A stretch of DNA of 64,000 nt from Parcubacteria group bacterium ADurb.Bin159 (GCA_002070355.1 MWDC01000002.1:8814-72813); one strand, 5' to 3'; positions 647 through 54,222 are shown, numbered from the stretch's first letter. Notes: a model not told the origin generated them from the letters alone. Made by a program: numbers and translations.

Positions 647-1216
647 ATGACAAAATTTTTTAATTTAATTATTTGCGGTTATGGAGGCCAAGGAGTTTTA
701 ACTTTGGCGGAAATAATTTCTCGCGCTGCTTTGGAAGAAAATTATAAAGTAATGGAATCCGAGTTGCACGGTTTAGCGCAAAGAGGCGGTCCTTTGGATT
801 GCCATATTAGAATGGGAAAAAACCAAGAATTTTTTTCTCCCTTAATCAGGCGAGGGGAAGCGGATTTAATTATTGCTTTGGATTTATTAGAAGCTTGGCG
901 GGCTTGTTATTTCGCTAACAAAAAAAAGACGAAAATTATTAGTAACGAAGAAATAGGTTTTCTTGGTAAATGGCAGGGGACGGACAAAAAACAAATGATT
1001 TCCCAAATTAAAAAAAACAGTCAAGAACAAGAATTTATAGAAGCAACAAAAATAGTTAAAGAAAACGTGGGGATTATTGGGCCTTTAAATATTTTTATGC
1101 TTTCTCAAGCGCTGAAAAAAAATTATCTCCCCTTAAAGAGGGAGACAGTTTGGCGAGTTATTGAAGAAAGATTAAAAGGTAAAAATTTGGAAATTAATAA
1201 AAAAGTTTTTTGTTAG
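647..1216 (+). CDS. iorB: indolepyruvate ferredoxin oxidoreductase beta subunit (POR/OFOR gamma-type catalytic domain)
   Basis: 189 aa. N-terminus ICGYGGQGVLTLAEIISRAAL..GLAQRGGPLDCHIRMG is the typical IorB/PorG fold. It lies 9 nt downstream of iorA. Confidence 0.75.
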   Translation: MTKFFNLIICGYGGQGVLTLAEIISRAALEENYKVMESELHGLAQRGGPLDCHIRMGKNQEFFSPLIRRGEADLIIALDLLEAWRACYFANKKKTKIISNEEIGFLGKWQGTDKKQMISQIKKNSQEQEFIEATKIVKENVGIIGPLNIFMLSQALKKNYLPLKRETVWRVIEERLKGKNLEINKKVFC

Positions 1217-1461
1217 GGTCAGACCCCAAAAACCGACCGCTGATAACCCTTTATTGATGCGGGTTTGCGGGCGATTTTTCAAAAATGGCACGATTTTGAT
1301 CAGAATTTGGAATTTAGAATTTTAAATATAAAATTTATTTTATTTTTATCATTTTTTACATTATTTTAAATTTGGTAAAAAAAGTGTCAAAATTGATTTT
1401 CGGGCGATTTTACCCTTTATTGATGCGGGTTTGCAGAGGTCGGAAAAAGGGGACTGTCCCC
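1216..1461 (-). repeat. modular intergenic repeat element, copy A (~246 bp), an inverted copy of element F at 53985-54222
   Basis: Modules found: M2 palindrome GGGTCAGACCCC (1216-1227); M3 ccctttattgatgcgggttt twice (1247-1266, 1413-1432); M5 aaaaatggcacgattttgat (1281-1300); AT-rich core; M1 palindrome GGGGACTGTCCCC (1449-1461). The reverse complement aligns to copy F over the full length at roughly 85-90% identity. Confidence 0.85.
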
Positions 1462-3659
1462 TTTGCAATTGACTTTGGCCAATCTTGAATAAGAAGAAGA
1501 TTGGCTTTTTCATTTGGATGAAATTCTTGCCAAATTTTTTCCGTGACAAAGGGAATAAACGGGTGTAAAAGTTTAAGCAGATCAAATAAAATTAAATATA
1601 AAATTTTAATTGTTTGATCCTTTAACTCAGCGTTTTTAATTTGTTTTTTAGCGGTTTCAATATATATATCGGCTAATTCGTGCCAAGAAAACTGATAAAG
1701 CTCTTGCGCGGCTTTACCTAATTCGTATTGTTCGATTTTTGAAGTAACGGAAATAATTATTTCGTTTAATCGCGAAAGGATTTGAATATCAGCAGGGGTC
1801 AGATTTTTATAATTTATTTTTTCTTTACTAAAATCTGTATCTATTGAATCTTGCATTTTTATAAATCGGGCAATGTTATAAATTTTATTAACGAAATTTC
1901 TCGCTCCCACTAAAGAGCGTTCATCAAATTTTATAGATTGCTGTTCTGGGGTAAGATTAAAAATTAAGCTCCAGCGAGTGGCATCGGCTCCGTAATTTTT
2001 AATTAAGTTTAATGGGTCAACGCCTGTGCCCAATGATTTGCTCATTCGTCGGCCTTCGGGGTTAAGAATAGTGGGATGAATATAAACCGTGGAAAACGGA
2101 ATTTTGCCGGTAAATTCTAAAGAGGAAAAAATCATTCGGGATACCCACAGATAAAGAATTTCTTGGGCAGTAGTTAAAAAATCAGTAGGATAAAAATTTT
2201 TTAAATCTTTTGTTTTTTTAGGCCAGCCAAGAATGGCAAATGGCCAAAGAGCAGAAGAAAACCAGGTATCTAACACATCGGGGACTTGCTCGTATTCTGA
2301 ATTACATATGGGGCATTTTTCTTTCGGCTTATTTATGGAAACTATGAAATTTGTTTTTTGGTTTTGATGGGCAGATTTTGAATTTTCTGCTTGACATTGC
2401 CAAACAGGCAATCTGTGCCCCCACCACAATTGGCGGGAAATACACCAATCTTCGATATTTTGAAGCCAATTAAAATATAATTTTTCTAAACGTGAGGGAA
2501 TTATTTTGATTTTTCCTTGTTTTACTACTTTAATGGCTGGGCGAACCAATTTATCCATTTTAATAAACCACTGAGTAGATATTTGCGGTTCGATAGGCGT
2601 TAGACACCGGTCGCATAAAGAAAGATGGTGAGTATAATCTTCTTCTTTAACTAATAATTTGAGACGTTCTAACTCCTCCTTTATTTTCTGCCGCGCTTCT
2701 AAAACAGGCAGCCCTTTATATTTACCCGCTTCATCAGTCATTTTTGCTTGCGGGCCAATAACATTTATAATTTTTAATTTATGCGCTTGGCCAATTTTCC
2801 AGTCAAGAGCATCGTGGGCAGGGGTGATTTTAACTGCTCCGGTGCCAAATTGAGGGTCAACAAAATGATTGGCAATAATAGGTATCTCCCGGTTAACTAT
2901 GGGCAGAATTGCTGTTTTGCCTATTAAATTTTTATATCTTTTGTCCTTAGGATTAACGGCTATGGCGGTATCGCCCAACATTGTTTCCGGCCGAGTAGTA
3001 GCCACAATAATATATTCTGAATTTTGAATTAAATTTGAATTTTTAATTTTATATTTTATATAGTAAAGTTTTGTTTTTTCTTCTTTATATTTAATTTCAA
3101 TATCAGAAATGGCTGTTTCGCATCTTGGACACCAGTTAACTAAACGCGGGCCACGATAAATATAGCCCTTTTGGTAATAATGAAAAAAAGCTTTCTCTAC
3201 AGCAGTGGAATAATCATCATCTAAAGTAAAACGAGTTCTTGACCAGTCGCAAGAACAACCCAATTTTTCAAATTGTGATAAAATAATATTGCCATATTTT
3301 TCTTTCCATTGCCAAACATACTCTAAAAATTTTTCACGGCCAATATTTTTGCGAGTTATTCCTTTTTTAGCTAATTCTTTTTCTACAACATTTTGAGTGG
3401 CAATGCCGGCATGGTCAGTACCGGGAACCCATAAAGTTTTTTCTCCTTTAAGCCGATGATAGCGAATTAAAATATCTTGAATAGTGGAGTTTAGGGCATG
3501 TCCCATATGGAGAGAACCGGTAATATTTGGTGGAGGGATAGCAATTACAAATTTTTTCTTTCTTTTCCCTGGCAGATTATCAGGATTAAAAAAGCCGCTC
3601 TCTTTCCAGAGCTGGTAAATTTCCTCTTCAAATTTTTCCGCTTGCCATTTCGGCTCCAT
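1410..3659 (-). CDS. valS: valine--tRNA ligase (short form, about 749 aa, no long C-terminal coiled coil)
   Basis: PPPNITGSLHMGHALN (HIGH region), KMSKS motif, and the CP1 editing motif GTGAVKITPAHD. The last ~17 codons are read through repeat element A. Confidence 0.9.
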   Translation of the reverse strand: MEPKWQAEKFEEEIYQLWKESGFFNPDNLPGKRKKKFVIAIPPPNITGSLHMGHALNSTIQDILIRYHRLKGEKTLWVPGTDHAGIATQNVVEKELAKKGITRKNIGREKFLEYVWQWKEKYGNIILSQFEKLGCSCDWSRTRFTLDDDYSTAVEKAFFHYYQKGYIYRGPRLVNWCPRCETAISDIEIKYKEEKTKLYYIKYKIKNSNLIQNSEYIIVATTRPETMLGDTAIAVNPKDKRYKNLIGKTAILPIVNREIPIIANHFVDPQFGTGAVKITPAHDALDWKIGQAHKLKIINVIGPQAKMTDEAGKYKGLPVLEARQKIKEELERLKLLVKEEDYTHHLSLCDRCLTPIEPQISTQWFIKMDKLVRPAIKVVKQGKIKIIPSRLEKLYFNWLQNIEDWCISRQLWWGHRLPVWQCQAENSKSAHQNQKTNFIVSINKPKEKCPICNSEYEQVPDVLDTWFSSALWPFAILGWPKKTKDLKNFYPTDFLTTAQEILYLWVSRMIFSSLEFTGKIPFSTVYIHPTILNPEGRRMSKSLGTGVDPLNLIKNYGADATRWSLIFNLTPEQQSIKFDERSLVGARNFVNKIYNIARFIKMQDSIDTDFSKEKINYKNLTPADIQILSRLNEIIISVTSKIEQYELGKAAQELYQFSWHELADIYIETAKKQIKNAELKDQTIKILYLILFDLLKLLHPFIPFVTEKIWQEFHPNEKANLLLIQDWPKSIAKGTVPFFRPLQTRINKG

Positions 3660-3703
3660 AATTTTTATTGTATTGATTTTTTGTATTAAGTCAATAATTT
3701 ATA

Positions 3704-3732
3704 TTGCTTGATTTCTAAAAATATATTATAAT
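3704..3732 (+). promoter_or_regulatory. sigma70-like promoter TTGCTT-N17-TATAAT; the -10 box ends 7 nt before the ATG at 3740 (leaderless mRNA)
   Basis: ttgctt at 3704-3709 and tataat at 3727-3732. No Shine-Dalgarno sequence is present. Confidence 0.5.
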
Positions 3733-3739
3733 ATAACAT

Positions 3740-4615: not shown

Positions 4616-4629
4616 TTAACAGATTTTAT

Positions 4630-5655
4630 ATGGATATTCTAAATATCAAAAAACAAATAGAAGAAGATATTAGCCGCGTGAGGACATTAAATGATTTAGA
4701 AAATATTTCTAAAAAATATTTAGGCAGAAAAGGCGAGATTACTCGTTTTTTTGATGAAATAAAAAATTTTTCTTCAAAGCAAAGAGCAGAGAAAGGAAGA
4801 GAGGGGAATGAACTTAAAAATTGGTTAATTACCCAAATAGAAAGCAAGAGGCAAATATTTGAAAAGGGAGGAGAAGAGAGTAAATACAAAAAAGATATAG
4901 ACATTACTCAGCCCGGGGAAAAAATAGAAAGGGGTAATTTGTCGCTGATTACCCAGATGAAAAATGAAATAGAAATGTTTTTTCTTTCTATGGGGTTTGA
5001 TATAGCTGAGGGGCCGAATGTGGAAACAGAATTTTATAATTTTGATGCCTTAAATATACCAGAATATCATCCGGCTCGAGATATACAAGATACTTTTTGG
5101 CTGAAAGAAAAGGGAATAAATAAAGAAAAATTACTTTTGCGCACTCACACTTCGCCGGTGCAAATAAGATATATGAGAGAGCATAAGCCGCCGCTGAAAA
5201 TGATAACTATTGGCAATACTTTTAGACATGAAGCCATTGATGCTTCCCATGAAGCGCAATTTTGCCAAATGGAAGGGTTGGCTGTTGATAAAAACATTTC
5301 TTTGGCGAATTTAAAAGATGTGGTGGAAAATTTTTTGCGGCATTTTTTCGGCAAAAAAATGGCTATTCAATGGCGACCAGGTTATTTTCCTTTTGTTGAG
5401 CCGGGAGTAGAAGTGGATATGGAGTGTTTGATGTGTCGCGGAAAAGGATGTCCGGTTTGTAAAAATAGTGGATGGCTGGAAGTAATGGGGGCAGGAATGG
5501 TTCATCCGTATGTTTTAAAAAAAGGAGGTATTGACCCTCATAAATGGCAGGGATTTGCTTTTGGTATAGGCATTGACCGTTTGGTGATGTTAAGACACTG
5601 TATTACTGACATTCGAGTTTTCCGCGGGGGACAGTCCCCAAAGATTGACTTCTGA
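4630..5655 (+). CDS. pheS: phenylalanine--tRNA ligase alpha subunit
   Basis: 341 aa. The class II core motifs FRHEAIDASHEAQFCQMEGL and GAGMVHP are present. The last codons run into repeat element B. Confidence 0.95.
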   Translation: MDILNIKKQIEEDISRVRTLNDLENISKKYLGRKGEITRFFDEIKNFSSKQRAEKGREGNELKNWLITQIESKRQIFEKGGEESKYKKDIDITQPGEKIERGNLSLITQMKNEIEMFFLSMGFDIAEGPNVETEFYNFDALNIPEYHPARDIQDTFWLKEKGINKEKLLLRTHTSPVQIRYMREHKPPLKMITIGNTFRHEAIDASHEAQFCQMEGLAVDKNISLANLKDVVENFLRHFFGKKMAIQWRPGYFPFVEPGVEVDMECLMCRGKGCPVCKNSGWLEVMGAGMVHPYVLKKGGIDPHKWQGFAFGIGIDRLVMLRHCITDIRVFRGGQSPKIDF

Positions 5656-5933
5656 AAATCCGCATAAATAAAGGCGAAACAAGCGAATTTTTAAAATTAG
5701 GGTTGTGGACCCTAAATTTGAAAAATTATTTAAATTGGTCAAAAAATATATTAGTATTAAAGGAACAGTCCCCAAAAAAAGTAAAAAGTTGTTTAAATTG
5801 ATTAAAAAATATAATTTTTATTTTGAATAAACAAAATTCTAAATTTAGGGTTGTGAGCCCTAAATTTGAAAAATGCCTTTGAAACGCAGATGAATAAAGG
5901 CTTTTAGAGGGGCGGAAACAAGGGACTGTCCCC
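5627..5933 (+). repeat. modular intergenic repeat element, copy B (long form with an internal partial duplication)
   Basis: M1 GGGGACAGTCCCC (5627-5639); M3 aaatccgcataaataaaggc (5656-5675); M4 palindrome tagggttgtggaccctaa (5698-5715); half M1 ggaacagtcccc (5762-5773); M4 copy (5846-5863); M3-like cgcagatgaataaaggc (5885-5901); M1 (5922-5933). It is co-linear with copy E. Confidence 0.85.
5789..5815 (+). promoter_or_regulatory. promoter-like TTGTTT-N15-TATAAT embedded in repeat B, facing pheT
   Basis: The same arrangement (TTGCTT-N15-TATAAT) occurs at the equivalent position of repeat E (14772-14798). The 15-nt spacer is shorter than optimal. Confidence 0.35.
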
Positions 5934-8340: not shown

Positions 8341-8353
8341 GGGGACTGTCCCC
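8341..8353. repeat. solo M1 palindrome GGGGACTGTCCCC immediately after the pheT stop
   Basis: This 13-mer terminates or begins repeat elements A, B, E and F. It is followed by atatccaca (8361-8369), which matches the DnaA-box consensus at 8 of 9 positions. Confidence 0.7.
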
Positions 8354-8378: not shown

Positions 8379-8406
8379 TTGACATATTTTGTTTATTTTT
8401 TATAAT
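8379..8406 (+). promoter_or_regulatory. consensus sigma70 promoter TTGACA-N16-TATAAT
   Basis: ttgaca at 8379-8384 and tataat at 8401-8406, 49 nt upstream of the 8455 ATG. Confidence 0.6.
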
Positions 8407-8454: not shown

Positions 8455-9441
8455 ATGAAAAAAGAAAACATTTGGTTAATCGTTTCTATTGTGTTGTTTA
8501 TTGGTTTAGTTGCTTCTATGTTTACTGGTGGTTTTGGTATAAAAATTAGCGGCAGTGGCGATTCTCCAGTAGAAGTAGCCGACAAGGCGGTAAAATTTAT
8601 TAATGATTACGGTTTAGGAGGAGGAGCAACTGCTTCAGTTGTGCCGGGTTCTTCAGAGTATTTAAAAAGCGACCTTTATAAATTTGGTTTAAATATAGGT
8701 GGGCAAGAATATACTTCTTATGTTTCTCGAGACGGCAAATTACTTTTTCCTAGTGTCATTGATATGGGAGAAATGTCCAAGTCCTCGCCGGAAGCAACAG
8801 CCGAAAATGAATCAGTAGAAATACCTCAGACAGAAAAGCCGGAGGTGAGATTATTTGTGATGGCTTATTGCCCTTATGGCAATCAAGCAGAAGCAGCGAT
8901 GATACCTGCGGCTAATCTCCTGAAAGACAAAGCTGATATTAGTTTAAATAGTGTTATTTATTCTGATTACGCTACAAATATGGGAGGAGAAGCCAAAGAT
9001 TGGTGTTTAGATGAAGAGCAAAAATATTGTTCTATGCATGGGATTAATGAATTAAATGAAGATATTAGAGAATTGTGTGTGGCTAAATACGAGCCGGAAA
9101 AACTTTGGGATTTTGTAGGGAAAATAAATGACGAAACAACTACTCAAGATGTGGAAACTAAATGGGAAGATATTGCCAAAGAAATGAAAATAGATGTTAA
9201 TAAAATAAAAGATTGTCAAAAAAATGAAGCGGAAAGTTTATTAGACGAACAAGTGGCTTTAAATGAAGAATATGGCATTTCCGGTTCACCTACTCTTTTA
9301 ATCAACGGAGTGAGATATCAAGGAGACCGCACTGCTGAGGCATATAAAACGGCCATTTGTCAGGCTTTTACAGAAATGCCGGAAGAATGCAAAACAACAT
9401 TAGACGAAGGAACAGTTGCTGCTCAAGGGACTTGTAACTAA
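8455..9441 (+). CDS. membrane-anchored thioredoxin-fold (DsbA-like) protein with a variant CPYG active-site motif
   Basis: An N-terminal transmembrane helix, FVMAYCPYGNQ, and GISGSPTLLINGVRYQG (thioredoxin/DsbA C-terminal signature). The second active-site Cys is replaced by Gly. Confidence 0.55.
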   Translation: MKKENIWLIVSIVLFIGLVASMFTGGFGIKISGSGDSPVEVADKAVKFINDYGLGGGATASVVPGSSEYLKSDLYKFGLNIGGQEYTSYVSRDGKLLFPSVIDMGEMSKSSPEATAENESVEIPQTEKPEVRLFVMAYCPYGNQAEAAMIPAANLLKDKADISLNSVIYSDYATNMGGEAKDWCLDEEQKYCSMHGINELNEDIRELCVAKYEPEKLWDFVGKINDETTTQDVETKWEDIAKEMKIDVNKIKDCQKNEAESLLDEQVALNEEYGISGSPTLLINGVRYQGDRTAEAYKTAICQAFTEMPEECKTTLDEGTVAAQGTCN

Positions 9442-9617
9442 TAAAAAGGATAGTTCCCACAAAGTAATCCTATAAAATCAATAAAGGGCTATCTTTTAAA
9501 AAAATAAAATAACTTGTCTTATTTTGTTTACTCTGTTTACTGACAGGCAGGCGGCAGACAGGCGTTTTTTGCCTATTTAAAAATTAATCACAAAAAATAT
9601 AAGAAAAGGAGGAAAAA

Positions 9618-10476: not shown

Positions 10477-11868
10477 ATGATATATTTTAAATATATGCAA
10501 AAGCCATCTCTTTTTTTTACCGTGTTAAAAGTTCCACTTGATTGGTTGATGCTTATTCTATCCGGTCTTTTTGTTTATTGGTTGCGTTTTATCGCTTTGG
10601 CTAATCGATGGCCAGTAGTTTTTGAGATAAAATTTCTTGATTATTTTTTAATTTTAATTATTTTAGCCTTTGTTTGGGTAGGCCTTTTTGCTATTAGCGG
10701 TCTTTACCAAACCAAAAGAATACATTTTTCCAAAGAAGCCCTAAAAATATTTTTAGCTTCTTCCATTGGCATTATTTTTCTTTTTTTAGTTAGTTTCTTT
10801 TCTAGAGAATTAATTCCCTCTCGATTTATTATTATTGCTTTTTGGTTTTTTTCTATTATTTTTGTTTGTTGGGGAAGAATTTTTATCCATTATTTACTGA
10901 ATAATCAATTTAAAAAAGGAAAAGGACTGGAGCCGATTATTATTTTAGGGAAAAATGAAATAGCGCAGCGTTTAATCACAATTATTAATAAAAATCCGAA
11001 TTTAGGATATAAAGTAATTGATAATCTCTCTTCAGTATTTCTTTTAAAAGAAAAATGGCAAGGCAAAGAAAGAAGAATAAATCAAATTATTCAAGCAGAT
11101 CCAAATATTAGTTCCGAAGAATTAAAAACTATTATTGATTTTTGTGTGGAAAATCAAATTATTTTTAGATACATTCCTGATTTAGTTGGTTTAGTTAGTC
11201 CGAAAATGGAGTTAGATTTTTTGGGAGGATTTCCTATAATGGAGATTAAGGAAAGTGTTTGTCAGGGTTGGGGGAGTGTAGCTAAAGATATTTTTGATCT
11301 CATCGTCTCTGATATTATTGTCACCTTGCTTTTACCTGTTTTTGTTATTATTATTTTGGCTATTAAATTAGATTCACCTGGTCCGGCTTTTGTTACTTTA
11401 ACTCGTCTTGGAGCAAGAGGAAAGCCATTCGGGCTTTTCAAATTCCGTTCTATGATAAAGGATGCAGATAAAATGAAAGAACAATTAGCCGCTTTAAATG
11501 AAAGAGAGGGACCTCTTTTTAAAATTAAAAACGACCCGCGAATTACGCGAGTAGGTAAAGTTTTACGCCGTTTAAGTTTAGATGAATTACCTCAATTTTT
11601 TAATGTTTTAAGGGGAGAAATGAGTTTAGTTGGCCCGCGGCCCCATGAGCCCGGAGAAGTGGCTAAATATGAAACTTGGCATAAAAAATTATTAAATGTC
11701 AAACCGGGCATAACCGGTTTAGCTCAAATTTCCGGTCGTTCAGATTTGAGTTTTGAAGAAGAGGCGCGGCTTGATTTATATTATCTTCAAAATTGGTCTT
11801 TTTTGTTTGATTTAGAAATTTTAATTAAAACTATCCCTGCGGTCTTAAACTTTAAACATTCTGCTTAA
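10477..11868 (+). CDS. polyprenyl-phosphate glycosylphosphotransferase (WbaP/bacterial sugar transferase family)
   Basis: 463 aa with an N-terminal multi-TM region. C-terminal motifs KFRSM..KNDPRITRVGKVLRRLSLDELPQFFNVLRGEMSLVGPRP are characteristic of this family. Confidence 0.85.
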   Translation: MIYFKYMQKPSLFFTVLKVPLDWLMLILSGLFVYWLRFIALANRWPVVFEIKFLDYFLILIILAFVWVGLFAISGLYQTKRIHFSKEALKIFLASSIGIIFLFLVSFFSRELIPSRFIIIAFWFFSIIFVCWGRIFIHYLLNNQFKKGKGLEPIIILGKNEIAQRLITIINKNPNLGYKVIDNLSSVFLLKEKWQGKERRINQIIQADPNISSEELKTIIDFCVENQIIFRYIPDLVGLVSPKMELDFLGGFPIMEIKESVCQGWGSVAKDIFDLIVSDIIVTLLLPVFVIIILAIKLDSPGPAFVTLTRLGARGKPFGLFKFRSMIKDADKMKEQLAALNEREGPLFKIKNDPRITRVGKVLRRLSLDELPQFFNVLRGEMSLVGPRPHEPGEVAKYETWHKKLLNVKPGITGLAQISGRSDLSFEEEARLDLYYLQNWSFLFDLEILIKTIPAVLNFKHSA

Positions 11869-11973
11869 ATGGGGTCTCCGCTTAAATGGGGTCAGACCCC
11901 CAAAACCAACCTCCGGAAAGCCGCATAAATAAAAGGATATCTTTCAAATTTTTAAAAATGGCACGATTTTGAT
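11863..11973 (+). repeat. modular intergenic repeat, copy D (partial: tandem 14-mer, M2, M3, M5)
   Basis: gcttaaatggggtc occurs twice (11863-11876, 11880-11893). M2 GGGGTCAGACCCCC (11888-11901); M3 ccgcataaataaaagg (11921-11936) in the opposite orientation relative to M2/M5 compared with copy A; M5 aaaaatggcacgattttgat (11954-11973). Confidence 0.75.
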
Positions 11974-13785: not shown

Positions 13786-14727
13786 TTGATATATTTTATG
13801 TTTTCCATTGTTTCAAAAAGAAAAATTTTTTTTAGCATATCAGCGGTTGTTTGTTTAGCGGCAATTTTATGTTTGATTATTTGCCCCCTGAAATTAGGTA
13901 TTGATTTTACTGGTGGAGCAATGATTGAATTGTCCTTTGAAGAAAGGCCGTCAATAGAACAAATTAAAGAAAAGCTCAATTCTTTTAATTTAGGAGAAGT
14001 AAAAATCAGTCAAACAGGAGAGAATGGTTATCTTTTAAGATTTAAAGAAATTGACGAGCAAACTCACCAAGAAATTCTTAAAGTATTAACCGGCGCTAAA
14101 GAGGAAAGATATGAAATTGTTGGGCCGACTATTGGGCAAGAAGTAAAAACAAAAGCGAAAACAGCGATTATTTTGTCAGTTATTCTTATATTTGTTTATA
14201 TTGTTTGGGCTTTTCGTAAAATATCACGTTTTTTTGGCAGGCAGGAATCATGGCGTTATGGAGCAGGAGCAATTTTAGCCTTAGTTCATGATATGTTGAT
14301 TATGTGTGGATTTTTTGCTTTGCTCGGTTTTTTGAAGGGAACAGAAGTGGACACGCTTTTTATTAGCGCCTTATTAACGATTTTAGGATATTCAGTCAAT
14401 GATACTATTGTTATTTATGACCGCATTAGGGAAAACACCCTTCTCTACGGCAGAGATAATTTTGAAGAGGTGGTTAATCTTTCTTTAAACGAATCTTTAG
14501 TTCGTTCTTTAAATACTTCTTTAACTACTCTTTTAGTGGTTTTGACCATTGCTTTATTTACTGGTTCAAGTACTCAAATATTTGCTTTAGCTTTAGCTGT
14601 GGGTATTATATCCGGTACTTGGTCTACTATTGCCATTGCTACACCCTTTGTCCTTTTGGGCCACACCAAAAAGGGGACAGTCCCCAAAAGTCGACCTTCG
14701 CAAACCCGCATAAACATTGGCTTTTAG
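13786..14727 (+). CDS. secF: protein translocase subunit SecF
   Basis: LGIDFTGG motif with an RND-like TM region. The last ~15 codons (GTVPKSRPSQTRINIGF) run into repeat E. Confidence 0.9.
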   Translation: MIYFMFSIVSKRKIFFSISAVVCLAAILCLIICPLKLGIDFTGGAMIELSFEERPSIEQIKEKLNSFNLGEVKISQTGENGYLLRFKEIDEQTHQEILKVLTGAKEERYEIVGPTIGQEVKTKAKTAIILSVILIFVYIVWAFRKISRFFGRQESWRYGAGAILALVHDMLIMCGFFALLGFLKGTEVDTLFISALLTILGYSVNDTIVIYDRIRENTLLYGRDNFEEVVNLSLNESLVRSLNTSLTTLLVVLTIALFTGSSTQIFALALAVGIISGTWSTIAIATPFVLLGHTKKGTVPKSRPSQTRINIGF

Positions 14728-14918
14728 GACGAATTTTAAAAATTAGGGCTGTGAACCCTAAATTTGCAAAATTGCTTAAATTGGTCAAAAAATATAATTT
14801 TTATTTTAAATAAACAAAATTCTGAAAATTAGGGTTGTGAACCCTAATTTTGAAAAAATGCCTTTGAAACGCAGATGAATAAAGGCTTTTGGAGGGGCGG
14901 AAACGGGGGACTGTCCCC
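14673..14918 (+). repeat. modular intergenic repeat element, copy E (canonical long form)
   Basis: M1 (14673-14685); M3 variant aaacccgcataaacattggc (14702-14721); M4 tagggctgtgaaccctaa (14744-14761); promoter-like TTGCTT-N15-TATAAT (14772-14798); M4 (14830-14847); cgcagatgaataaaggc (14870-14886); M1 (14905-14918). It is co-linear with copy B. Confidence 0.85.
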
Positions 14919-36244: not shown

Positions 36245-37336
36245 TTACTCTACGGCTATACGACGTACATAAACGTAAATTGAAGAAAGGTAATAATCAT
36301 AAGGGGTAACTTTTAAAGTATACTCTCCCGCCTGGTTAGGAGTAAAATAAAGTTTTCTCGTAATTGAAGTAACTTTTCCATCAAAATTACGAGGCCTTGT
36401 AAAAGGTTCTTCTTTGCTAATATAAATTATTGTTTTTTTATCAGGATTTTTTAATTCTATTTCTACTGAGAATTTTGGATCCGGCAATTCTATTTGAGGC
36501 ATAACTTGAACTTCTAAAATCATTTTTTCATTTATTGCCTCTGTTAAAGAAAATTTGACCGTGGTTGGCGTCCCAGGCACTATACAAGAGGGATCCAAAG
36601 TTCCCTTTTCCCCCACCGAAGTATTTATTAATAAAACTGATGTACAGGGAAATTTATTTTGCCAGACAATTGGATATTTCTTTTCTTCTTTGGTCCCCAG
36701 AAAAATACCGGCAGCTAAAGCTCCAATTGTCAGTAAAATCCCACAAATAATAATAATTGTTTTTTCTTTTTTAGAAGCGTGTTTATATACCTTTTTTGTT
36801 TCTTTAAAAGATTTTTCTTCTTTCGCTGTTTTTTTCTTATTAATTTCCAAAGCAAAACCAACATTAAATTTGGTTAAAATTAATAAAATTGCTGATTTGA
36901 GTTGTATTAAAAGCATTAAGATAATATCAACGAAACCAGCCCAAAAAATAAAATCAATAACTTTTCCTTGAATAGTGAAACCAACAAAATTATTAATTAC
37001 TTCCGGAAATACCCATACAAAATTAGGGTCTACTCCCAAATTAAAAGAATTAAAAAATTGATAAGCATGAGTATAATAAAAATAAGCGATAAAAGAAAAA
37101 ATACCTATTTGAAGCCAAGGTGGAGAAAAAAGTGATAACAACTCGGCTGTCGTACCAACCACAAGGAAAATACCCAAAAGTATCTCAAACAAATACTGCC
37201 CTTGGTTAAAATTCAATTTGCTTTGAATAATAATAAGAACAAAAATCCCTATCCCTACAAAACAAAATAGCCATAAAAGCAAAGAAATAATTTTTGAAAA
37301 AATATTCCAAATAATTTTTCCAAAGGAAACGTTCAT
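36245..37336 (-). CDS. polytopic membrane protein (about 6 N-terminal TM helices) with a C-terminal ~150-aa extracytoplasmic domain; paralog of the next gene
   Basis: Its C-terminal domain shares VE(I/V)ELKNPDKKTIIY(I/L)(S/E)KEE, W(Q/R)..FP.T, and AG(E/D)YTLK(V/I)TPY with the protein at 37346-37897. Confidence 0.6.
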   Translation of the reverse strand: MNVSFGKIIWNIFSKIISLLLWLFCFVGIGIFVLIIIQSKLNFNQGQYLFEILLGIFLVVGTTAELLSLFSPPWLQIGIFSFIAYFYYTHAYQFFNSFNLGVDPNFVWVFPEVINNFVGFTIQGKVIDFIFWAGFVDIILMLLIQLKSAILLILTKFNVGFALEINKKKTAKEEKSFKETKKVYKHASKKEKTIIIICGILLTIGALAAGIFLGTKEEKKYPIVWQNKFPCTSVLLINTSVGEKGTLDPSCIVPGTPTTVKFSLTEAINEKMILEVQVMPQIELPDPKFSVEIELKNPDKKTIIYISKEEPFTRPRNFDGKVTSITRKLYFTPNQAGEYTLKVTPYDYYLSSIYVYVRRIAVE

Positions 37337-37345: not shown

Positions 37346-37897
37346 TTACGTTGCTTCACGAATTGTTACATCAATATATTCAATGCCGTAGCTATAAGGA
37401 GTAATTTTTAAGGTGTAATCTCCTGCTTTTTCAATAGTAAAATTAAATTCTTTAAAAGAATTAGAGTTTTTATTTGGAGAATTAGGAATAGATCCTTTTA
37501 AAATTTCTTCTTTTTCTAAGTAAATAATTGTTTTTTTGTCAGGATTTTTTAATTCTACTTCAACAGAGGCCTCTGGCGAATTTTTCCCTTCTTGAATAAG
37601 AGGTTGCATAGCAACCATTAAATATAAAATTAATTTTTCATTTTCTTTCTCTAATGGAATAAGAGCTGTTTTTGTTTCTCCTGGTTTAATCGAGGAAGGA
37701 AGTAAATTGTCTTTTTTACCACAATCTTCTTTATAACAAATAGCTGTTCCAGGAAATCTGCCTCGCCAAATAGCAGGATGTTTTATCTCTTGTTGATCCG
37801 CAAACCAAACAATGGTAAAAATTACTCCTACAGCAAGCGCCATAGTAAAAAACATTATAAAAAGAGGATTTTGAAATATGTTTCGTTTTTTGGGCAT
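37346..37897 (-). CDS. single-TM membrane protein with the same extracytoplasmic domain (paralog)
   Basis: 183 aa; an N-terminal TM helix followed by the shared domain. It lies 9 nt upstream of its paralog and is co-oriented with tRNA-Pro. Confidence 0.6.
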   Translation of the reverse strand: MPKKRNIFQNPLFIMFFTMALAVGVIFTIVWFADQQEIKHPAIWRGRFPGTAICYKEDCGKKDNLLPSSIKPGETKTALIPLEKENEKLILYLMVAMQPLIQEGKNSPEASVEVELKNPDKKTIIYLEKEEILKGSIPNSPNKNSNSFKEFNFTIEKAGDYTLKITPYSYGIEYIDVTIREAT

Positions 37898-38078: not shown

Positions 38079-38153
38079 TGGTCGGGGTAGCCGGACTTGA
38101 ACCGGCGACCTCATCGTCCCGAACGATGCGCGCTACCACTGCGCTATACCCCG
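38079..38153 (-). tRNA. tRNA-Pro (anticodon CGG), with CCA encoded
   Basis: The reverse complement reads CGGGGTA-TA-GCGC-AGTGGTA-GCGC-G-CATCG-TTCGGGA-CGATG-AGGTC-GCCGG-TTCAAGT-CCGGC-TACCCCG-A-CCA. This is a canonical cloverleaf with a 7-bp acceptor stem and TTCGGGA anticodon loop. Two ORF-track entries (37933-38190 and 38097-38462) overlap it and are spurious. Confidence 0.9.
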
Positions 38154-40575: not shown

Positions 40576-41802
40576 ATGGCGTTTTTTAGGACAATTAAAA
40601 ATATTAAAAATCTTTACGGGAAACGAGTTTTAATGCGCGTTGATTTTAATTTTACCCTAAAAGACGGAAAACCCATAGATAGTTTTCGTTTAAAAGCCAT
40701 ATTTCCTACTTTAGAATTTTTAAAACCATTTAGAACAAAACTAATTTTAATCAGTCATTTTGGCGAACCCAAGGGAAAATTTGATAAAAAATATAGTTTA
40801 GAGCCTATAGCTAAATGGCTATTAAACCAAGATAAAATTTTTCAAAACTTAAAATTTATTGTCAATCCGTTTGAGAAAGAGGGGAGAGAAGCAATCCAAA
40901 ATTTGAAAGAAGGAGATATTGCTCTTTTAGAAAATATCCGCTTCTGGAAAGGAGAAGAAGAAAATAATCCAAAATTTGCGCAAAAATTAGCTAATTTTGG
41001 GGATATTTATATTAACGAAGCATTTTCTGTTTCTCATCGAGCACATTCTTCTATAACGGGATTACCTAAAATTTTACCCAGTTACGCTGGGATAAATTTT
41101 GAAAATGAAGTTAATAATTTAAATCAAGTTTTAAAAAAATATCATCATCCTTTTACTCTTATTTTAGGAGGAGCAAAAATTAGCACTAAACTTGGTTTGC
41201 TTTTAAATTTTAAGAACAAAGCAAATTTTATTCTTATTGGCGGCGCTATGGCTAACACTTTTTTAAAAGCAAAGGGATCCAATATAGGCAATTCTTTAAT
41301 AGAAGAAACAATGCTTTCAAAAGCCAAAGAAATTCTAAAACAAAAAAATTTGATTTTACCTAATGATGTGATGATAAAAATGAGAAATAAAAAAATACGA
41401 ATTATAGATATTGACAAATTAAACGATTTAAAGCATAATGATTTTAAGATATTGGATATTGGCCCGAAAACGATAAAAAAATTTTCTGATATTATTAAAA
41501 CATCTAAAGAAATAATTTGGAATGGACCATTAGGTTATTTTGAGGAGAAACCCTTTACTCAAGGAACGGTAAAAATAATTCAAAGTATTTTGTCTAATAA
41601 AAAGGCGAGAATAACTATTGGTGGGGGAGAAACCATAGTTTGCCTTGGACAGGCAAAGGTTAAACGTCCGATGCCAAATGCCGAAAATAAAATATTCGTT
41701 TCTACTGGAGGAGGGGCGATGCTTGAATTTTTAAGCGGGAAAGAATTACCCGGTTTAATCGCCTTGACAAAAAATAAGGATTTGGTAAATTTAAATAAAT
41801 AA
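40576..41802 (+). CDS. pgk: phosphoglycerate kinase
   Basis: 408 aa. N-terminus VLMRVDFNFTLKDGKPID, the hinge, and C-terminal nucleotide-binding GGGETIV / GGGAMLEFL motifs. Confidence 0.9.
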   Translation: MAFFRTIKNIKNLYGKRVLMRVDFNFTLKDGKPIDSFRLKAIFPTLEFLKPFRTKLILISHFGEPKGKFDKKYSLEPIAKWLLNQDKIFQNLKFIVNPFEKEGREAIQNLKEGDIALLENIRFWKGEEENNPKFAQKLANFGDIYINEAFSVSHRAHSSITGLPKILPSYAGINFENEVNNLNQVLKKYHHPFTLILGGAKISTKLGLLLNFKNKANFILIGGAMANTFLKAKGSNIGNSLIEETMLSKAKEILKQKNLILPNDVMIKMRNKKIRIIDIDKLNDLKHNDFKILDIGPKTIKKFSDIIKTSKEIIWNGPLGYFEEKPFTQGTVKIIQSILSNKKARITIGGGETIVCLGQAKVKRPMPNAENKIFVSTGGGAMLEFLSGKELPGLIALTKNKDLVNLNK

Positions 41803-41814
41803 AATAATTTAGCC

Positions 41815-41901
41815 GAAGAAAGTAGGGGATTATAACAATCTTAAAAATCCTATTGAGGCAAAACATTAGACCTACTTTCTTCTTTATACTGTAGGTTTTT
41901 T
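41815..41901 (+). terminator. pgk 3' structure: a perfect 12-bp inverted repeat gaagaaagtagg/cctactttcttc (41815-41826 and 41871-41882), plus an alternative cctac..gtagg + T6 hairpin (41871-41901)
   Basis: There are two mutually exclusive pairings for the cctac segment. The T-run is followed by tatataat (41901-41908), a -10-like box. Confidence 0.45.
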
Positions 41902-41944
41902 ATATAATTAAAAAATAAATTTTACCTTTACTAAACAGAAATTT

Positions 41945-49967: not shown

Positions 49968-50034
49968 TTATCCACAATTTATCCACAGTTTATCCACTTC
50001 TTTGATTTGGATTTTTTTTATTTTAGTTTATAAT
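49968..50034 (+). promoter_or_regulatory. oriC-type DnaA-box array (three direct TTATCCACA boxes with 11-bp periodicity: 49968, 49979, 49990), an AT-rich segment, and a dnaA promoter (TTGGAT-N16-TATAAT, 50007-50034) ending 8 nt before the ATG
   Basis: ttatccacaat-ttatccacagt-ttatccact; the -10 box tataat is at 50029-50034. Confidence 0.8.
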
Positions 50035-50042
50035 AAACCAAT

Positions 50043-51434: not shown

Positions 51435-51441
51435 ATTTAAA

Positions 51442-52293: not shown

Positions 52294-52312
52294 AATAAAT
52301 ATATTTTTTATT

Positions 52313-53983
52313 ATGCCTCAAAACAACACATCTCCCACTTCCGAAGAAATGGAAAAAAAATTAAAAGATAAACTTAGCGGTCTTGCTTTAGAAAAGGAAG
52401 AAGAAAACGCTAGAAATATGGCTTACAGCTTAGGATTAGATTATATTAATTTATATAACTTTCCTATTGCCCCGGAAGCCTTAAGGTTAATTTCCGAAGA
52501 AGAGGCGAGACAATTTAATACTGTTTGTTTTTGGTTGGGAGAGAAAGAGGCGAAATTAGCTACAACCTTAATAGAAAAATCAAAAATAAGAGAATTCCAA
52601 AAAATTTTTGAAGAAAGGGCGGGGGTATCTACTCGTCTTTTTTTTGTTTCTCAAAATAGTTTAAAATATGCTCTTGATTTTTATAAAACGCTTCCCAAAA
52701 TTTATCAGCCATCTAAGGGGGTTCAAATTACTTCTGTTGATTTAGCACGTTTTGAAGATAAAATAAAAACCTTTAAGGATTTAAACGAAGAGATAAAAAA
52801 TGTTTCTATTTCAGATATCGTAACCTTAATTGTTGCTTCAGCTATTAATTCCCGCGCTTCAGATATTCATATAGAAGCAGAAGAAAAGGAAATTAAAGTT
52901 CGATTTAGAGTTGATGGAGTTTTAGTGGATGTAGCTGATATAGATAAAGATTTATGGAAAAGTATTATTTCGCGTATAAAATTACTCTCCGCTCTTAAAA
53001 TTAACATTAATGACCAACCCCAAGATGGCCGTTTTACCATAAATTTGCCGAACGATAAAGTAGATGTAAGGGTTTCTACTTTGCCGACGGCATTTGGAGA
53101 AAGCGTAGTAATGAGGTTGCTTCGTTCTTCTTCTGTTGGTTTGCAATTTGAAGATTTAGGTTTAATAGACAGGGCGTTTGACATACTATCCCGGGCAATT
53201 AAGAGGCCGAATGGTATGATTATTACCACTGGTCCGACTGGTTCAGGGAAAACGACTACTCTTTACGCTATTTTAAATAAAATTAATCGGCCAGAAATAA
53301 AAATTCTTACTTTAGAAGACCCTATTGAATATCACTTAGAAGGAATTAATCAAAGTCAAGTAGATAAAGAAAAAGATTATACTTTTGCTAAAGGCCTTCG
53401 CTCACTTATGCGGCAAGATCCTGATGTAATAATGATTGGAGAAATTAGGGACGGGGAAACAGCAGAAATAGCTATTCAAGCAGCTTTAACCGGCCATTTA
53501 GTTATTTCCACTCTTCATACTAATGACGCCGCTGGAGCAATTCCCAGATTTATTGCTTTAGGAGCAAAACCATTTCTTTTAGCCCCGGCTTTAAATGTGA
53601 TTATTGCTCAAAGATTAGTTCGCCGAATTTGCCCTGAATGCAAGAAAGAAACAAAATTATCTCCTGACCTTCTCAAAAGAGTTTCTGCTGATTTGAATAA
53701 AATTCCGCAGAAAAACAATCTTTCTTTAGAAAAACTTAAATTTTATAAAGGAGAGGGATGTTCTCATTGTCAAGGATTAGGATATCATGGCCGTATCGGT
53801 ATTTATGAGGTTTTAGAAATTACTTCAGAAGCTGAAAAGATTATCAACGAAGGAGATGTTTCTGAATATAAAATAAAAGAATTCGCCGCCAGCCAAGGGA
53901 TGGTTCCTATGGTGGGCGATGGTTTATTAAAAGCCATTAATGGAATTACTACTGTAGACGAAGTATATCGTGTCATCGAATAA
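52313..53983 (+). CDS. type II secretion / type IV pilus assembly ATPase (GspE/PilB family)
   Basis: Walker A GPTGSGKTTT, Asp/His boxes, Walker B DPDVIMIGEIRD, and the tetracysteine CPECKK..CSHCQGLGY. Confidence 0.9.
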   Translation: MPQNNTSPTSEEMEKKLKDKLSGLALEKEEENARNMAYSLGLDYINLYNFPIAPEALRLISEEEARQFNTVCFWLGEKEAKLATTLIEKSKIREFQKIFEERAGVSTRLFFVSQNSLKYALDFYKTLPKIYQPSKGVQITSVDLARFEDKIKTFKDLNEEIKNVSISDIVTLIVASAINSRASDIHIEAEEKEIKVRFRVDGVLVDVADIDKDLWKSIISRIKLLSALKININDQPQDGRFTINLPNDKVDVRVSTLPTAFGESVVMRLLRSSSVGLQFEDLGLIDRAFDILSRAIKRPNGMIITTGPTGSGKTTTLYAILNKINRPEIKILTLEDPIEYHLEGINQSQVDKEKDYTFAKGLRSLMRQDPDVIMIGEIRDGETAEIAIQAALTGHLVISTLHTNDAAGAIPRFIALGAKPFLLAPALNVIIAQRLVRRICPECKKETKLSPDLLKRVSADLNKIPQKNNLSLEKLKFYKGEGCSHCQGLGYHGRIGIYEVLEITSEAEKIINEGDVSEYKIKEFAASQGMVPMVGDGLLKAINGITTVDEVYRVIE

Positions 53984-53984
53984 A

Positions 53985-54222
53985 GGGGACAGTCCCCTTT
54001 TTCTGCCTCTCGCAAACCCGCATCAATAAAGGCTTATCTCGCGAGAAAATCAAATTTGACACTTTTTTTACCTTTTTAAAATAATAATAAAAATAAATTA
54101 AATTTTATATTCCATATTCCAAATTCTAAATTCTGATCAAAATCGTGCCATTTTTGAAAAATCGCCTGGAAATCCGCATCAATAAAGGGCTTCCTGCGGT
54201 CGGTTTTTGGGGTCTGACCCCC
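53985..54222 (+). repeat. modular intergenic repeat element, copy F (~238 bp), inverted partner of copy A
   Basis: M1 (53985-53997) starts 1 nt after the gspE stop. M3 aaacccgcatcaataaagg (54014-54032); TTGACA-N15-TAAAAT (54056-54082); AT-rich core; M5 in reverse complement (54136-54155); M3 (54170-54189); M2 GGGGTCTGACCCCC (54209-54222). Confidence 0.85.

What the first reader, a model, noticed from the sequence alone, without database searches (positions are those of the whole stretch)
1216..54222. A family of modular, palindrome-containing intergenic repeat elements at gene 3' ends
Five recurring sequence modules are assembled in different combinations at six intergenic sites: 1216-1461, 5627-5933, 8341-8353, 11863-11973, 14673-14918 and 53985-54222. 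The modules are M1 GGGGACAGTCCCC, M2 GGGGTCAGACCCC, M3 (A/C)CCGCAT(C/A)AATAAAGG, M4 TAGGGTTGTG(A/G)ACCCTAA and M5 AAAAATGGCACGATTTTGAT. Three modules are near-perfect palindromes with a GT/AC centre. Each copy sits within 0-3 nt of a stop codon, or the ORF runs into it. This resembles REP/BIME/BOX-type mosaic elements, but with a different module set. Such an element family in a tiny, streamlined genome is unexpected and may supply terminators, promoters or protein-binding sites.
Basis: seen in the sequence. Interest (0 to 1): 0.75.

Follow-up and report, generated by a model that had tools for sequence, protein, structure and literature searches.

The report
REP-like repeats with a RAYT partner
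The five "modules" are conserved blocks of one ~95-base end piece of a small repeat that, in related ultra-small (Patescibacteria) bacteria, flanks a single-copy REP-type (RAYT) transposase gene, so this is a new, atypical version of the known REP/RAYT repeat system in an unexpectedly tiny genome.

Summary
The 13-nt palindrome occurs 10 times in the window against 0.03 expected, and all sites match the stated coordinates.

The modules are not free building blocks. They are fixed blocks of one rigid end module: palindrome (M1/M2), 20 nt, M3 box, 12 nt, then an inner motif (M4 or M5). Two end modules facing each other make two element types: A (1215-1461, 53985-54221) and B (5627-5933, 14673-14918). 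There is also a half copy (11888-11973) and a solo palindrome (8341-8353).

A metagenome scan found the module in about 75 low-GC contigs, always with the 20-nt spacing.

In 8 of 8 related loci examined, inverted copies of the palindrome enclose a ~200-aa HUH/Y1 gene. In most of them recognisable parts of the end module are there too. The best matches of this gene are the REP-associated tyrosine transposase (NF047646; PDB 4ER8). The gene sits at one fixed, syntenic locus per genome.

Related species have an empty pheS|pheT junction.

I conclude that this is a non-canonical REP/RAYT (REPIN/BIME-like) system of Patescibacteria. It lacks the GT[AG]G foot. Mobilisation by the RAYT and any terminator or promoter role are inferred. 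No RAYT lies in this window.

The parts
1215..1461 (-). Type A element, copy 1, between the convergent genes por-gamma (647-1216, +) and leuS (1410-3659, -). Contents: Pal2 1215-1227 (AGGGTCAGACCCC); M3 1248-1262(-); M5 1281-1300; promoter-like TTGACAC-N-TAAAAT 1390-1363(-); M3 1414-1428(-); Pal1 1449-1461. The last 17 codons of leuS (1410-1461) are element DNA.
   Evidence: (I1/I2: 79-89% reverse-complement match to 53985-54221)
5627..5933 (+). Type B element, copy 1, between pheS and pheT. Contents: Pal 5627-5639; M3 5660-5674; M4 hairpin 5697-5715; internal duplication with a degenerate Pal 5761-5773; M4 hairpin 5845-5863; M3 variant CGCAGATGAATAAAGG 5885-5900; Pal 5921-5933 (AGGGACTGTCCCC). 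pheS codons 5627-5655 are element DNA and replace the conserved PheS C-terminus.
   Evidence: The junction is empty in L004 (4-nt gap) and L005 (11-nt gap).
8341..8353 (.). Solo palindrome GGGGACTGTCCCC, 1 nt after the pheT stop codon. At the orthologous site, the 71%-PheS relative L004 carries a palindrome followed by a full end module.
11863..11973 (+). Half element after the sugar-transferase gene. A 14-nt tandem duplication of gene end plus half palindrome lies at 11863-11876 and 11880-11893. One end module follows at 11888-11973 (Pal2, 20 nt, M3 11921-11935, M5 11954-11973).
   Evidence: The module is 84/86 identical to the DNA immediately upstream of the RAYT ORF in L057.
14673..14918 (+). 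Type B element, copy 2, between secF and the Na/Pi transporter gene. Contents: Pal 14673-14685; M3 variant 14706-14720; M4 14743-14761; M4 14829-14847; M3 variant 14870-14885; Pal 14906-14918. secF codons 14673-14727 are element DNA.
   Evidence: (single-stranded DNA fold z = -5.3)
53985..54221 (+). Type A element, copy 2, between pilB-like gene 52313-53983 and gene 54256-55329. Contents: Pal1 53985-53997 followed by TTTTT; M3 54018-54032; promoter-like TTGACA-18-AATAAT 54056-54085(+); M5 54136-54155(-); M3 54174-54188; Pal2 54209-54221.
   Evidence: Segment 54127-54221 is 75/91 identical to the DNA just downstream of the RAYT ORF in L057.
9445..9500 (+). Tentative decayed end module directly after the stop codon of gene 8455-9441: AGGATAGTTCCCA ... 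AAAATCAATAAAGGGCTATCT. It has a shortened spacer and did not reach the nhmmer threshold.
   Evidence: (D20)

Best explanation
**What it is.** The repeats are the non-autonomous partners of a RAYT (REP-associated tyrosine transposase, HUH/Y1 family). They form a REP/REPIN/BIME-like system specific to a lineage of Patescibacteria.

**The repeated unit.** The unit is a rigid ~95-nt end module with five parts in fixed order:
1. A 13-nt perfect palindrome (GGGGACAGTCCCC or GGGGTCAGACCCC).
2. A 20-nt spacer.
3. The box AAACCCGCATMAATAAAGG (M3).
4. 12 nt.
5. A lineage-specific inner motif: hairpin M4, or M5/TTGACAC.

**Relation to the RAYT gene.** In related genomes, inverted copies of the palindrome bracket one RAYT gene, mostly with recognisable end-module blocks. 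The window's 237-307-nt elements are the same pair of end modules without the gene. The half copy and the solo palindrome are further truncations.

**Shown:**
- The family, its fixed anatomy and its abundance.
- Its association with a single-locus RAYT.
- Gain or loss of elements between species.
- Placement at gene 3' ends.
- Element-encoded C-terminal tails on PheS, LeuRS and SecF.
- A sense-strand bias of M3.

**Inferred by analogy with E. coli TnpA(REP) and IS200/IS605 TnpA:**
- The RAYT binds the folded palindrome on single-stranded DNA, probably at the replication fork.
- It cuts and rejoins nearby, with the equally conserved M3 box as a likely second recognition or cleavage site.
- This seeds copies into the short AT-rich gaps behind stop codons.

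**Why copies persist (also inferred).**
- The module brings stop codons in all three frames.
- In type A it brings a hairpin plus T-run and an inward-reading promoter-like block.
- Insertions are therefore tolerated, or possibly useful as gene-boundary signals.
For: **Repeat family.**
- Pal occurs 10 times in the window, against 0.03 expected.
- Type A and type B copies align end to end, and similarity stops at the palindromes.
About 75 are low-GC, and all of those have exactly 20 nt between Pal and M3.
- A 60-nt profile finds 174 modules in 547 kb.
- 108 unique modules share one frame.

**Palindrome under selection.**
- 73 of 73 family hits are palindromic at the two positions the search left free.
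- The variants GGGGAC/GTCCCC, GGGGTC/GACCCC and GGTGAC/GTCACC differ by double substitutions.
- The M4 stem shows a T-A to C-G change.

**RAYT link.**
- ORFs flanked by the modules hit PF01797 at 1.4e-15.
- They score 63-76 bits on NF047646 (RAYT), against about 20 bits for IS200.
- A profile of the family hits only 4ER8 TnpA(REP) in the PDB, at 5.9e-8.
- The AF2 model (pLDDT 85) has 4er8_A as its top fold match (E 2.2e-8); the IS608, ISDra2 and IS200 transposases score about 1e-5.
- HUH (H62, H64) and Y121 are invariant.
- 8 of 8 RAYT loci are bracketed by inverted palindromes.
- Window 11888-11973 is 97.7% identical to a RAYT 5' flank, and 54127-54221 is 82% identical to its 3' flank.
- A RAYT C-terminal relic lies inside gene-less elements.

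**Single locus.**
- P0123 occurs on 20 contigs and P0187 on 23, and in every place shown each has the same neighbours.
- Three species share the synteny around the gene.

**Gain or loss between species.**
- pheS|pheT is filled here but empty in L004 and L005, while L004 has modules at other junctions.

**Assembly breaks.**
- Same-species contigs end inside the element.
Against: - No RAYT gene lies in the 64-kb window. The window's genome is not in the genome collection, so co-residence of repeats and enzyme in this organism is not shown.
- The canonical REP signature, a 5' GT[AG]G at the hairpin foot (PMC6006769), is absent.
- The NCBIfam RAYT score is below that model's curated cut-off of 80 bits.
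- No presence/absence polymorphism was seen among same-species contigs. No target-site duplication or clean empty-site junction could be defined. Recent mobility is therefore not demonstrated.
- Type A does not fold better than shuffled sequence as single-stranded DNA (z = -0.4), unlike a classical REPIN.
- In two RAYT loci (L176, L182) only the two flanking palindromes are present within 16-20 kb, so amplification is not universal.
Confidence: 0.78

Rival explanations
1. This is an IS200/IS605-type insertion sequence of about 800 bp, consisting of the Y1 gene plus its ends. The window's elements are its internally deleted, still selfish derivatives (PATE/MITE-like), moved by classical peel-and-paste transposition.
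For: - The gene-bearing unit is compact (801-809 nt) and bounded by the same ends as the gene-less elements.
- The gene-less elements look like internal deletions, and some hold a RAYT relic.
- The inner hairpins (M4; TGCCGT-AAATA-ACGGCA) lie in direct orientation at the two ends, as the left- and right-end hairpins of IS200/IS605 do.
- The fold also matches the IS608 and ISDra2 TnpA structures at about 1e-5.
Against: - The protein is clearly nearer to TnpA(REP) than to TnpA(IS200): 63-76 bits against about 20 bits, and only 4ER8 is found by the profile.
- The gene sits at one fixed locus on 20 and 23 contigs, with synteny conserved across species. That is not the multi-copy pattern of an IS.
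- The elements have about 35-nt terminal inverted repeats, which IS200/IS605 lack.
- No tnpB is present.
- No insertion polymorphism was seen within species.
Confidence: 0.1
2. The modules are primarily host regulatory cassettes for gene boundaries: a terminator hairpin, a binding site for a host protein (M3) and a promoter. They are kept by selection and spread by recombination. The neighbouring RAYT is incidental.
For: - Palindromes start 1-3 nt after stop codons.
- Pal1 is followed by TTTTT and often preceded by AAAA, which gives the shape of a bidirectional terminator.
- TTGACA-16/18-TAAAAT/AATAAT (11/12 match) lies inside type A and reads toward the downstream gene at 54056-54085.
- M3 is on the sense strand of co-directional neighbours in 41 of 50 cases.
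- M3 and Pal are more conserved than the rest of the module.
- Sites are stable within species.
Against: - Ends with a T-run are not enriched at gene 3' ends relative to ends with an A-run (23/32 against 31/40).
- Type B ends at gene 3' ends have no T-run.
- In copy 1215-1461 the promoter-like block points antisense into por.
- The -10 part is not conserved in many TTGACAC modules.
- Insertions overwrite the conserved PheS C-terminus.
- Occupancy of orthologous junctions differs between related species.
- The consistent bracketing of RAYT genes (8/8) is hard to call incidental.
Confidence: 0.08
3. The elements encode or constitute a structured non-coding RNA or cis-regulatory RNA (for example a leader or riboswitch-like element) repeated in several 5' or 3' UTRs.
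For: - Hairpins with compensatory changes are present (Pal, M4).
- The sense-strand bias of M3 fits an RNA-level role.
- Stems around reversed M3 boxes co-vary in a few copies.
Against: - There is no Rfam match, even at E<=1.
- In 70 modules the only consensus helix is the 13-nt palindrome.
- M3 occurs in either orientation relative to Pal.
- Copies lie between convergent genes and at both 5' and 3' gene ends.
- The family brackets a transposase-family gene.
Confidence: 0.03

Closest known systems
REP / REPIN - RAYT (TnpA-REP) systems and REPtrons of Proteobacteria (Nunvar 2010 PMC2817692; Bertels & Rainey 2011 PMC3116915; Messing 2012 PMC3479197; Quentin 2018 PMC6006769)
   Same: - Short GC-rich palindromes are dispersed in extragenic DNA.
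- Inverted copies bracket a single-copy, vertically inherited HUH/Y1 gene whose closest solved relative is 4ER8.
- Each enzyme lineage has its own palindrome variant.
- Gene-less copies far outnumber the gene.
   Different: - There is no 5' GT[AG]G at the hairpin foot.
- The repeated unit is a rigid ~95-nt bipartite module (Pal, 20 nt, M3, and so on) rather than a 20-40-nt hairpin.
- Gene-less elements look like internally deleted RAYT cassettes.
- Type A does not form a long hairpin.
- The host is a low-GC Patescibacterium, whereas non-IS200 Y1 genes were reported mostly in large genomes (PMC6006769).
- The W of the E. coli W94-Q95 motif is F here.
BIMEs of E. coli (bacterial interspersed mosaic elements)
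   Same: - Composite intergenic elements are built from inverted palindromic units plus defined linker motifs.
- They are located after genes.
- Several architectures come from a small module set.
   Different: - The module order and spacing here are fixed.
- The linker motifs (M3, M4, M5) are unrelated to the BIME L/S/l/r/s motifs.
- No IHF consensus was found in M3 (my own inspection).
IS200/IS605 insertion sequences and their PATE derivatives
   Same: - The enzyme has the Y1 HUH fold.
- Subterminal hairpins lie in direct orientation.
- No target-site duplication is seen.
- Short gene-less derivatives exist.
   Different: - The enzyme is nearer to TnpA(REP).
- The gene sits at a single fixed locus.
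- Terminal inverted repeats are present.
- No tnpB is present.
Correia elements (Neisseria) and Rickettsia palindromic elements
   Same: - These are small elements with inverted ends that sit at gene boundaries.
- They can carry promoter or terminator signals (Correia), or add peptide segments to proteins (RPE). This comparison rests on my own knowledge.
   Different: - They are unrelated in sequence.
- Correia elements have a TA duplication and a DDE-type origin.
- Neither is tied to a Y1 enzyme.

Membership tests
REP/RAYT system (REPtron sensu Quentin 2018) | An associated Y1 protein with HUH and Tyr motifs that is closer to TnpA(REP) than to TnpA(IS200). | tested here: met
   - Pfam PF01797.
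- NF047646 scores 63-76 bits against about 20 bits for NF033573; the RAYT score is below the 80-bit equivalog cut-off.
- The profile hits only 4ER8.
- Foldseek's top match is 4er8_A.
- H62, H64 and Y121 are invariant.
- All of this was found in related loci, not in the window.
REP/RAYT system (REPtron sensu Quentin 2018) | The RAYT gene is flanked by copies of the dispersed palindrome in inverted orientation. | tested here: met
   8 of 8 loci: L050, L057, L159 (one side only, at a contig end), L164, L166, L168, L176, L182.
REP/RAYT system (REPtron sensu Quentin 2018) | The RAYT gene is single copy and vertically inherited (Bertels 2017, PMC5581495). | tested here: met
   - Identical proteins on 20 and 23 contigs have the same neighbours in every place shown.
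- Synteny is shared by three species.
- Whole-genome copy number could not be counted.
REP/RAYT system (REPtron sensu Quentin 2018) | Many copies of the palindrome lie in extragenic space of the same genome. | tested here: inconclusive
   - 10 copies in 64 kb here and 174 modules in 547 kb of selected loci.
- The genome-wide count is not available.
- L176 and L182 show only the two flanking copies.
REP/RAYT system (REPtron sensu Quentin 2018) | Canonical REP: a 5' GT[AG]G tetranucleotide at the foot of the hairpin. | tested here: not met
   - No GT[AG]G adjoins Pal, M4 or the TGCCGT hairpin in any of the 108 modules.
- Quentin 2018 also reports atypical, GTAG-less structures for subclasses 2.6 and 3.
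REP/RAYT system (REPtron sensu Quentin 2018) | The RAYT is encoded in the same genome as the repeats of this window. | not testable with these tools
   No RAYT lies in the window, and the genome is not in genome contigs.
REP/RAYT system (REPtron sensu Quentin 2018) | The enzyme binds and cleaves the repeat as single-stranded DNA. | not testable with these tools
   This needs biochemistry.
REPIN | Two inverted REPs separated by a short spacer, able to fold into one long hairpin. | tested here: inconclusive
   - Type B folds with its ends paired (z = -5.3).
- Type A does not (z = -0.4).
- The spacers are 200-280 nt, much longer than in REPINs.
IS200/IS605 + PATE | Multi-copy tnpA, no terminal inverted repeats, insertion 3' of a fixed tetra- or pentanucleotide. 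| tested here: not met
   - The gene sits at a single locus.
- About 35-nt inverted ends are present.
- No common flanking tetranucleotide is seen.
Classical MITE (DDE-derived) | Terminal inverted repeats plus a target-site duplication. | tested here: not met
   Inverted ends are present, but none of the four full copies has a direct duplication of flanking bases.
Rfam RNA families | A match to a curated covariance model. | tested here: not met
   No match at the gathering score or at E<=1.

The most novel reading that the evidence does not exclude
A domesticated, single-copy RAYT in ultra-small Patescibacteria genomes maintains a family of mobile 'gene-boundary cassettes'. Each cassette would carry a hairpin directly behind the stop codon, stops in all three frames, a conserved M3 protein site and, in type A, a promoter. 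Such cassettes would re-partition transcription units and even re-tail essential proteins (PheS, LeuRS, SecF).

In this reading the enzyme recognises a bipartite site, a palindrome plus a box exactly 20 nt away. That mode has not been described for Y1 enzymes.
Probability: 0.2. Interest if true: 0.7.

Novelty: new variant of a known kind. Interest (0 to 1): 0.5.

Why it matters
- **Unexpected host.** REP/RAYT systems have been characterised mainly in Proteobacteria and other bacteria with large genomes. Non-IS200 Y1 genes were reported to be rare in small genomes (PMC6006769). Here a conserved, syntenic RAYT with its own repeat family occurs in Patescibacteria, where non-coding DNA is scarce. 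That argues the system is tolerated or useful rather than simply not yet purged.
- **Practical consequences for these genomes.** The repeats break assemblies of these MAGs. They alter the C-termini of essential proteins. They may define transcription-unit boundaries.
- **A testable substrate.** The rigid module (Pal, 20 nt, M3) offers a defined substrate for testing how a GTAG-less RAYT recognises its DNA.
- **Prior literature.** I found no paper in the searchable library that describes REP, REPIN or MITE families in this phylum.

Tried and rejected
- **Viral contig scan** for Pal plus CGCAT: 22 hits, all high-GC chance matches.
- **Genome-collection scan with the M5 20-mer:** the window's genome is not there. 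16 of 17 hits are a coding-sequence coincidence in Flavobacteriaceae and Globicatella. One Patescibacteria hit (L037) has M5 plus an M3-like box without Pal.
- **M5 as a sigma-54 promoter (TGGCACG):** rejected, because the -12 GC is missing at the obligatory GG-N10-GC spacing (my own inspection).
- **M3 as an IHF site:** the consensus WATCAANNNNTTR is not met (my own inspection).
- **M3 in a conserved hairpin loop:** a few reversed-M3 copies show co-varying stems, but the consensus fold of 70 forward modules supports only the palindrome.
- **Rfam:** nothing.
- **Phage database:** nothing.
- **Target-site duplications:** none.
- **Clean filled/empty junctions:** same-species contigs always carry the element. 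The cross-species pair L140/L060 is too diverged to define the ends.
- **Exact look-up of the window's PheT:** not on record.
- **Search for a multi-copy protein among 727 ORFs of the fetched loci:** only the Y1 gene stood out. The other clusters are housekeeping or surface proteins.
- **T-run ends enriched at gene 3' ends:** not supported.


Full report
**1. Observation**

- The 13-nt palindrome GGGGWCWGWCCCC (<=1 mismatch) occurs 10 times in 64 kb, against 0.03 expected from dinucleotide-preserving shuffles.
- The M3 box occurs 9 times against 0.45 expected, and 6 of these lie in the elements.
- M4 (4 copies) and M5 (3 copies) occur only inside the elements.
- The window is about 31% G+C.
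- Genes next to the elements are housekeeping genes: por-gamma, leuS, pheS, pheT, a thioredoxin-like gene, a sugar transferase, HIT, secD/F, a Na/Pi transporter and pilB.
- The closest named PheS relatives are Patescibacteria/Parcubacteria.

**2. Anatomy**

The modules are not shuffled freely. Repeat finding and alignment show two element types:
- Type A: 1215-1461 and, in reverse orientation, 53985-54221 (79-89% identical).
- Type B: 5627-5933 and 14673-14918. The first copy carries an internal ~60-nt duplication.
- A half copy lies at 11888-11973 and a solo palindrome at 8341-8353.

Similarity between copies stops at the outer edge of the palindromes. The left palindrome has a central A and the right one a central T, so the ends are inverted repeats. 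M1 and M2 are the same palindrome with a compensatory A/T swap.

Each end has a fixed order: palindrome, 20 nt, M3, 12 nt, then M4 or M5 (or TTGACAC). In the window's elements the palindrome and spacer are inverted at the two ends. The M3 boxes and the M4 hairpins are in direct orientation.

No target-site duplication is visible.

**3. The family outside the window**

- Same-species contigs (PheS 99%) carry the same element between pheS and pheT. Two of them end inside it, as expected for a repeat that breaks assemblies.
- A relative with 71% PheS identity (L004) has a 4-nt pheS|pheT gap. It has modules upstream of pheS and directly after pheT, where the window has only the solo palindrome.
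- A 59% relative (L005/L006) is syntenic but has no modules and an 11-nt gap.
About 75 hits are low-GC, and every one of these has exactly 20 nt of spacer. The high-GC hits with other spacings are chance matches.
- A 60-nt profile finds 174 modules in 77 low-GC loci, 547 kb in total.
- 108 unique modules line up in one frame without gaps.
- Anchoring on M3, the 13-mer 20 nt away is GGGGACAGTCCCC (72), GGGGTCAGACCCC (28), GGGGACTGTCCCC (11) or GGTGACAGTCACC (4). These are perfect palindromes that differ by double substitutions.
- 73 of 73 scan hits are palindromic at the two positions the pattern left free.
- M4 also shows a compensatory T-A to C-G change.
- In a consensus fold of 70 modules, only the palindrome is a conserved helix. 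M3 is conserved as sequence.

**4. The partner gene**

- Clustering 727 ORFs from the fetched loci singled out one ~200-aa protein that lies next to modules in unrelated contigs.
- It is a Y1 HUH protein: PF01797, 1.4e-15.
- Its best NCBIfam model is the REP-associated tyrosine transposase, at 63-76 bits (cut-off 80). IS200 scores about 20 bits.
- A profile of 34 members finds only 4ER8, E. coli TnpA(REP) bound to a REP hairpin, in the PDB (5.9e-8). The alignment runs across the HUH and Tyr motifs.
- An AlphaFold model (pLDDT 85) has 4er8_A as top Foldseek match (2.2e-8), ahead of the IS608, ISDra2 and IS200 transposases at about 1e-5.
- H62, H64 and Y121 are invariant.
- At least 296 homologues exist. 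Those that carry a name are called Patescibacteria 'transposase', 'putative transposase' or 'RayT'.

Arrangement around the gene:
- In L050 the gene sits in an 801-nt unit: palindrome, module, ORF, module, palindrome.
- L057, L159, L164, L166, L168, L176 and L182 show the same bracket. The palindrome variant is lineage-specific (GGTGAC..GTCACC in L164/L166). Inner inverted repeats next to the ORF co-vary between lineages.
- Window 11888-11973 is 84/86 identical to the DNA just upstream of the L057 RAYT ORF. Window 54127-54221 is 75/91 identical to the DNA just downstream of it.
- A 44-aa relic of the RAYT C-terminus lies inside gene-less elements in three contigs.

Copy number of the gene:
- The identical P0123 protein is on 20 contigs, and in all 8 places shown its context is alaS-DUF5654-RAYT-nusB.
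- P0187 is on 23 contigs and always has the same downstream neighbours.
- Three species share the neighbourhood of P0155, P0158 and P0220.
- This is the single-copy, vertically inherited pattern described for RAYTs (PMC5581495), not that of an insertion sequence.

**5. Relation to genes**

- Of 107 unique module ends, 69 abut a gene 3' end, 23 a 5' end and 15 neither. The stop codon starts 4-6 nt before the palindrome, or the ORF runs 26-52 nt into the module, which holds stops in all frames.
- In the window the element encodes the last residues of three proteins:
  - PheS: RGGQSPKIDF, replacing the conserved HSxDLRFxxQF.
  - LeuRS: KGTVPFFRPLQTRINKG.
  - SecF: KGTVPKSRPSQTRINIGF.
- M3 lies on the sense strand of co-directional neighbours in 41 of 50 cases. 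I cannot separate a replication-strand bias from selection on transcription, and near-duplicate loci may inflate the count.
- Type A carries TTGACA-16-TAAAAT (1390-1363, minus strand) and TTGACA-18-AATAAT (54056-54085, plus strand).
- Pal1 is followed by TTTTT. However, T-run ends are not enriched at gene 3' ends. The -10 part is missing in many TTGACAC modules. In copy 1215-1461 the block points antisense into por.

**6. Interpretation**

The best-supported reading is a REP/RAYT-type system. The window's elements are gene-less pairs of the end modules that bracket a single-copy RAYT in related genomes.

Mobilisation by that enzyme on single-stranded DNA is inferred from homology (PMC3479197, PMC8266576) and from the bracket arrangement. 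It is not shown here.

Four points limit the claim:
- No RAYT is in the window, and the genome itself could not be retrieved.
- No polymorphism was seen within species.
- The canonical GT[AG]G foot is absent.
- Type A does not fold as a long hairpin, whereas type B does.

Rivals:
- An IS200-like insertion sequence with MITE-like derivatives fits the compact gene-bearing unit and the direct inner hairpins. It does not fit the single fixed locus or the protein's affinity.
- A purely regulatory cassette fits the position and the promoter and terminator shapes. It does not fit the variable occupancy, the overwritten PheS C-terminus or the constant bracket around RAYT genes.
- A structured RNA has no support beyond the hairpins.

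**7. Novelty**

- REP/RAYT systems are well known.
- The Y1 genes of Patescibacteria are already labelled 'RayT' or 'transposase' by pipelines.
- I found no description of the associated repeats in this phylum.
- Quentin et al. reported that non-IS200 Y1 genes favour large genomes.
- The rigid bipartite ~95-nt module, the absence of GTAG and the cassette-like gene-less elements make this a new variant of a known kind rather than a new kind.

Noticed in passing
window 11863-11893; also L166 upstream of RAYT, L132/L094, L108/L060: There are tandem duplications of the gene-end flank plus the left half of the palindrome, up to its centre. In the window this is GCTTAAATGGGGTC twice. The break point is always in or near the hairpin loop, which suggests slippage or nicking at the folded palindrome.
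   Followed up: partly
window 8379-8406 (+): A perfect 12/12 sigma-70 consensus (TTGACA-16-TATAAT) lies 26 nt after the solo palindrome and upstream of the thioredoxin-like gene at 8455. It is the best promoter match in the first 16 kb.
   Followed up: no
window 9445-9500 and 59611-59625: A probable decayed end module lies right after the stop of gene 8455-9441. An isolated M3-like box (CCGTATAAATAAAGG) lies just upstream of a ribosome-binding site near 59630.
   Followed up: partly
window 36402-36470 and 37500-37568: A 69-nt direct repeat (81% identical) lies inside two adjacent minus-strand ORFs (36245-37336 and 37346-37897). The ORFs may be paralogous genes (D16).
   Followed up: no
window 38079-38153 (-) and 41795-41911 (+): The only Rfam/ARAGORN features in the window are tRNA-Pro(CGG) and a ribosomal protein L10 leader.
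   Followed up: no
L029-L045 (genome-contig hits): The exact M5 20-mer AAAAATGGCACGATTTTGAT occurs in a conserved coding region of Arenibacter and other Flavobacteriaceae and of Globicatella. This is a coincidence unrelated to the element.
   Followed up: yes
L037 7230-7340 (-): Another Patescibacteria MAG (JBMFLE010000026.1) has M5 preceded by an M3-like box but no palindrome. The inner part of the module therefore exists in more distant lineages.
   Followed up: partly
L168-L175: In this lineage the RAYT unit lies beside tRNA genes, nusB, L32 and dnaA, close to the presumed replication origin.
   Followed up: no
L140 8190-8440, L051, L079, L149: Short tandem repeats (AATGACTAATGACTAA, TCAAATGTCAAATGTCAAAA) lie next to modules of the GGGCTGAGAGCCC sub-family. 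In that sub-family the 3' arm of the palindrome can alternatively pair with a downstream G-run.
   Followed up: no
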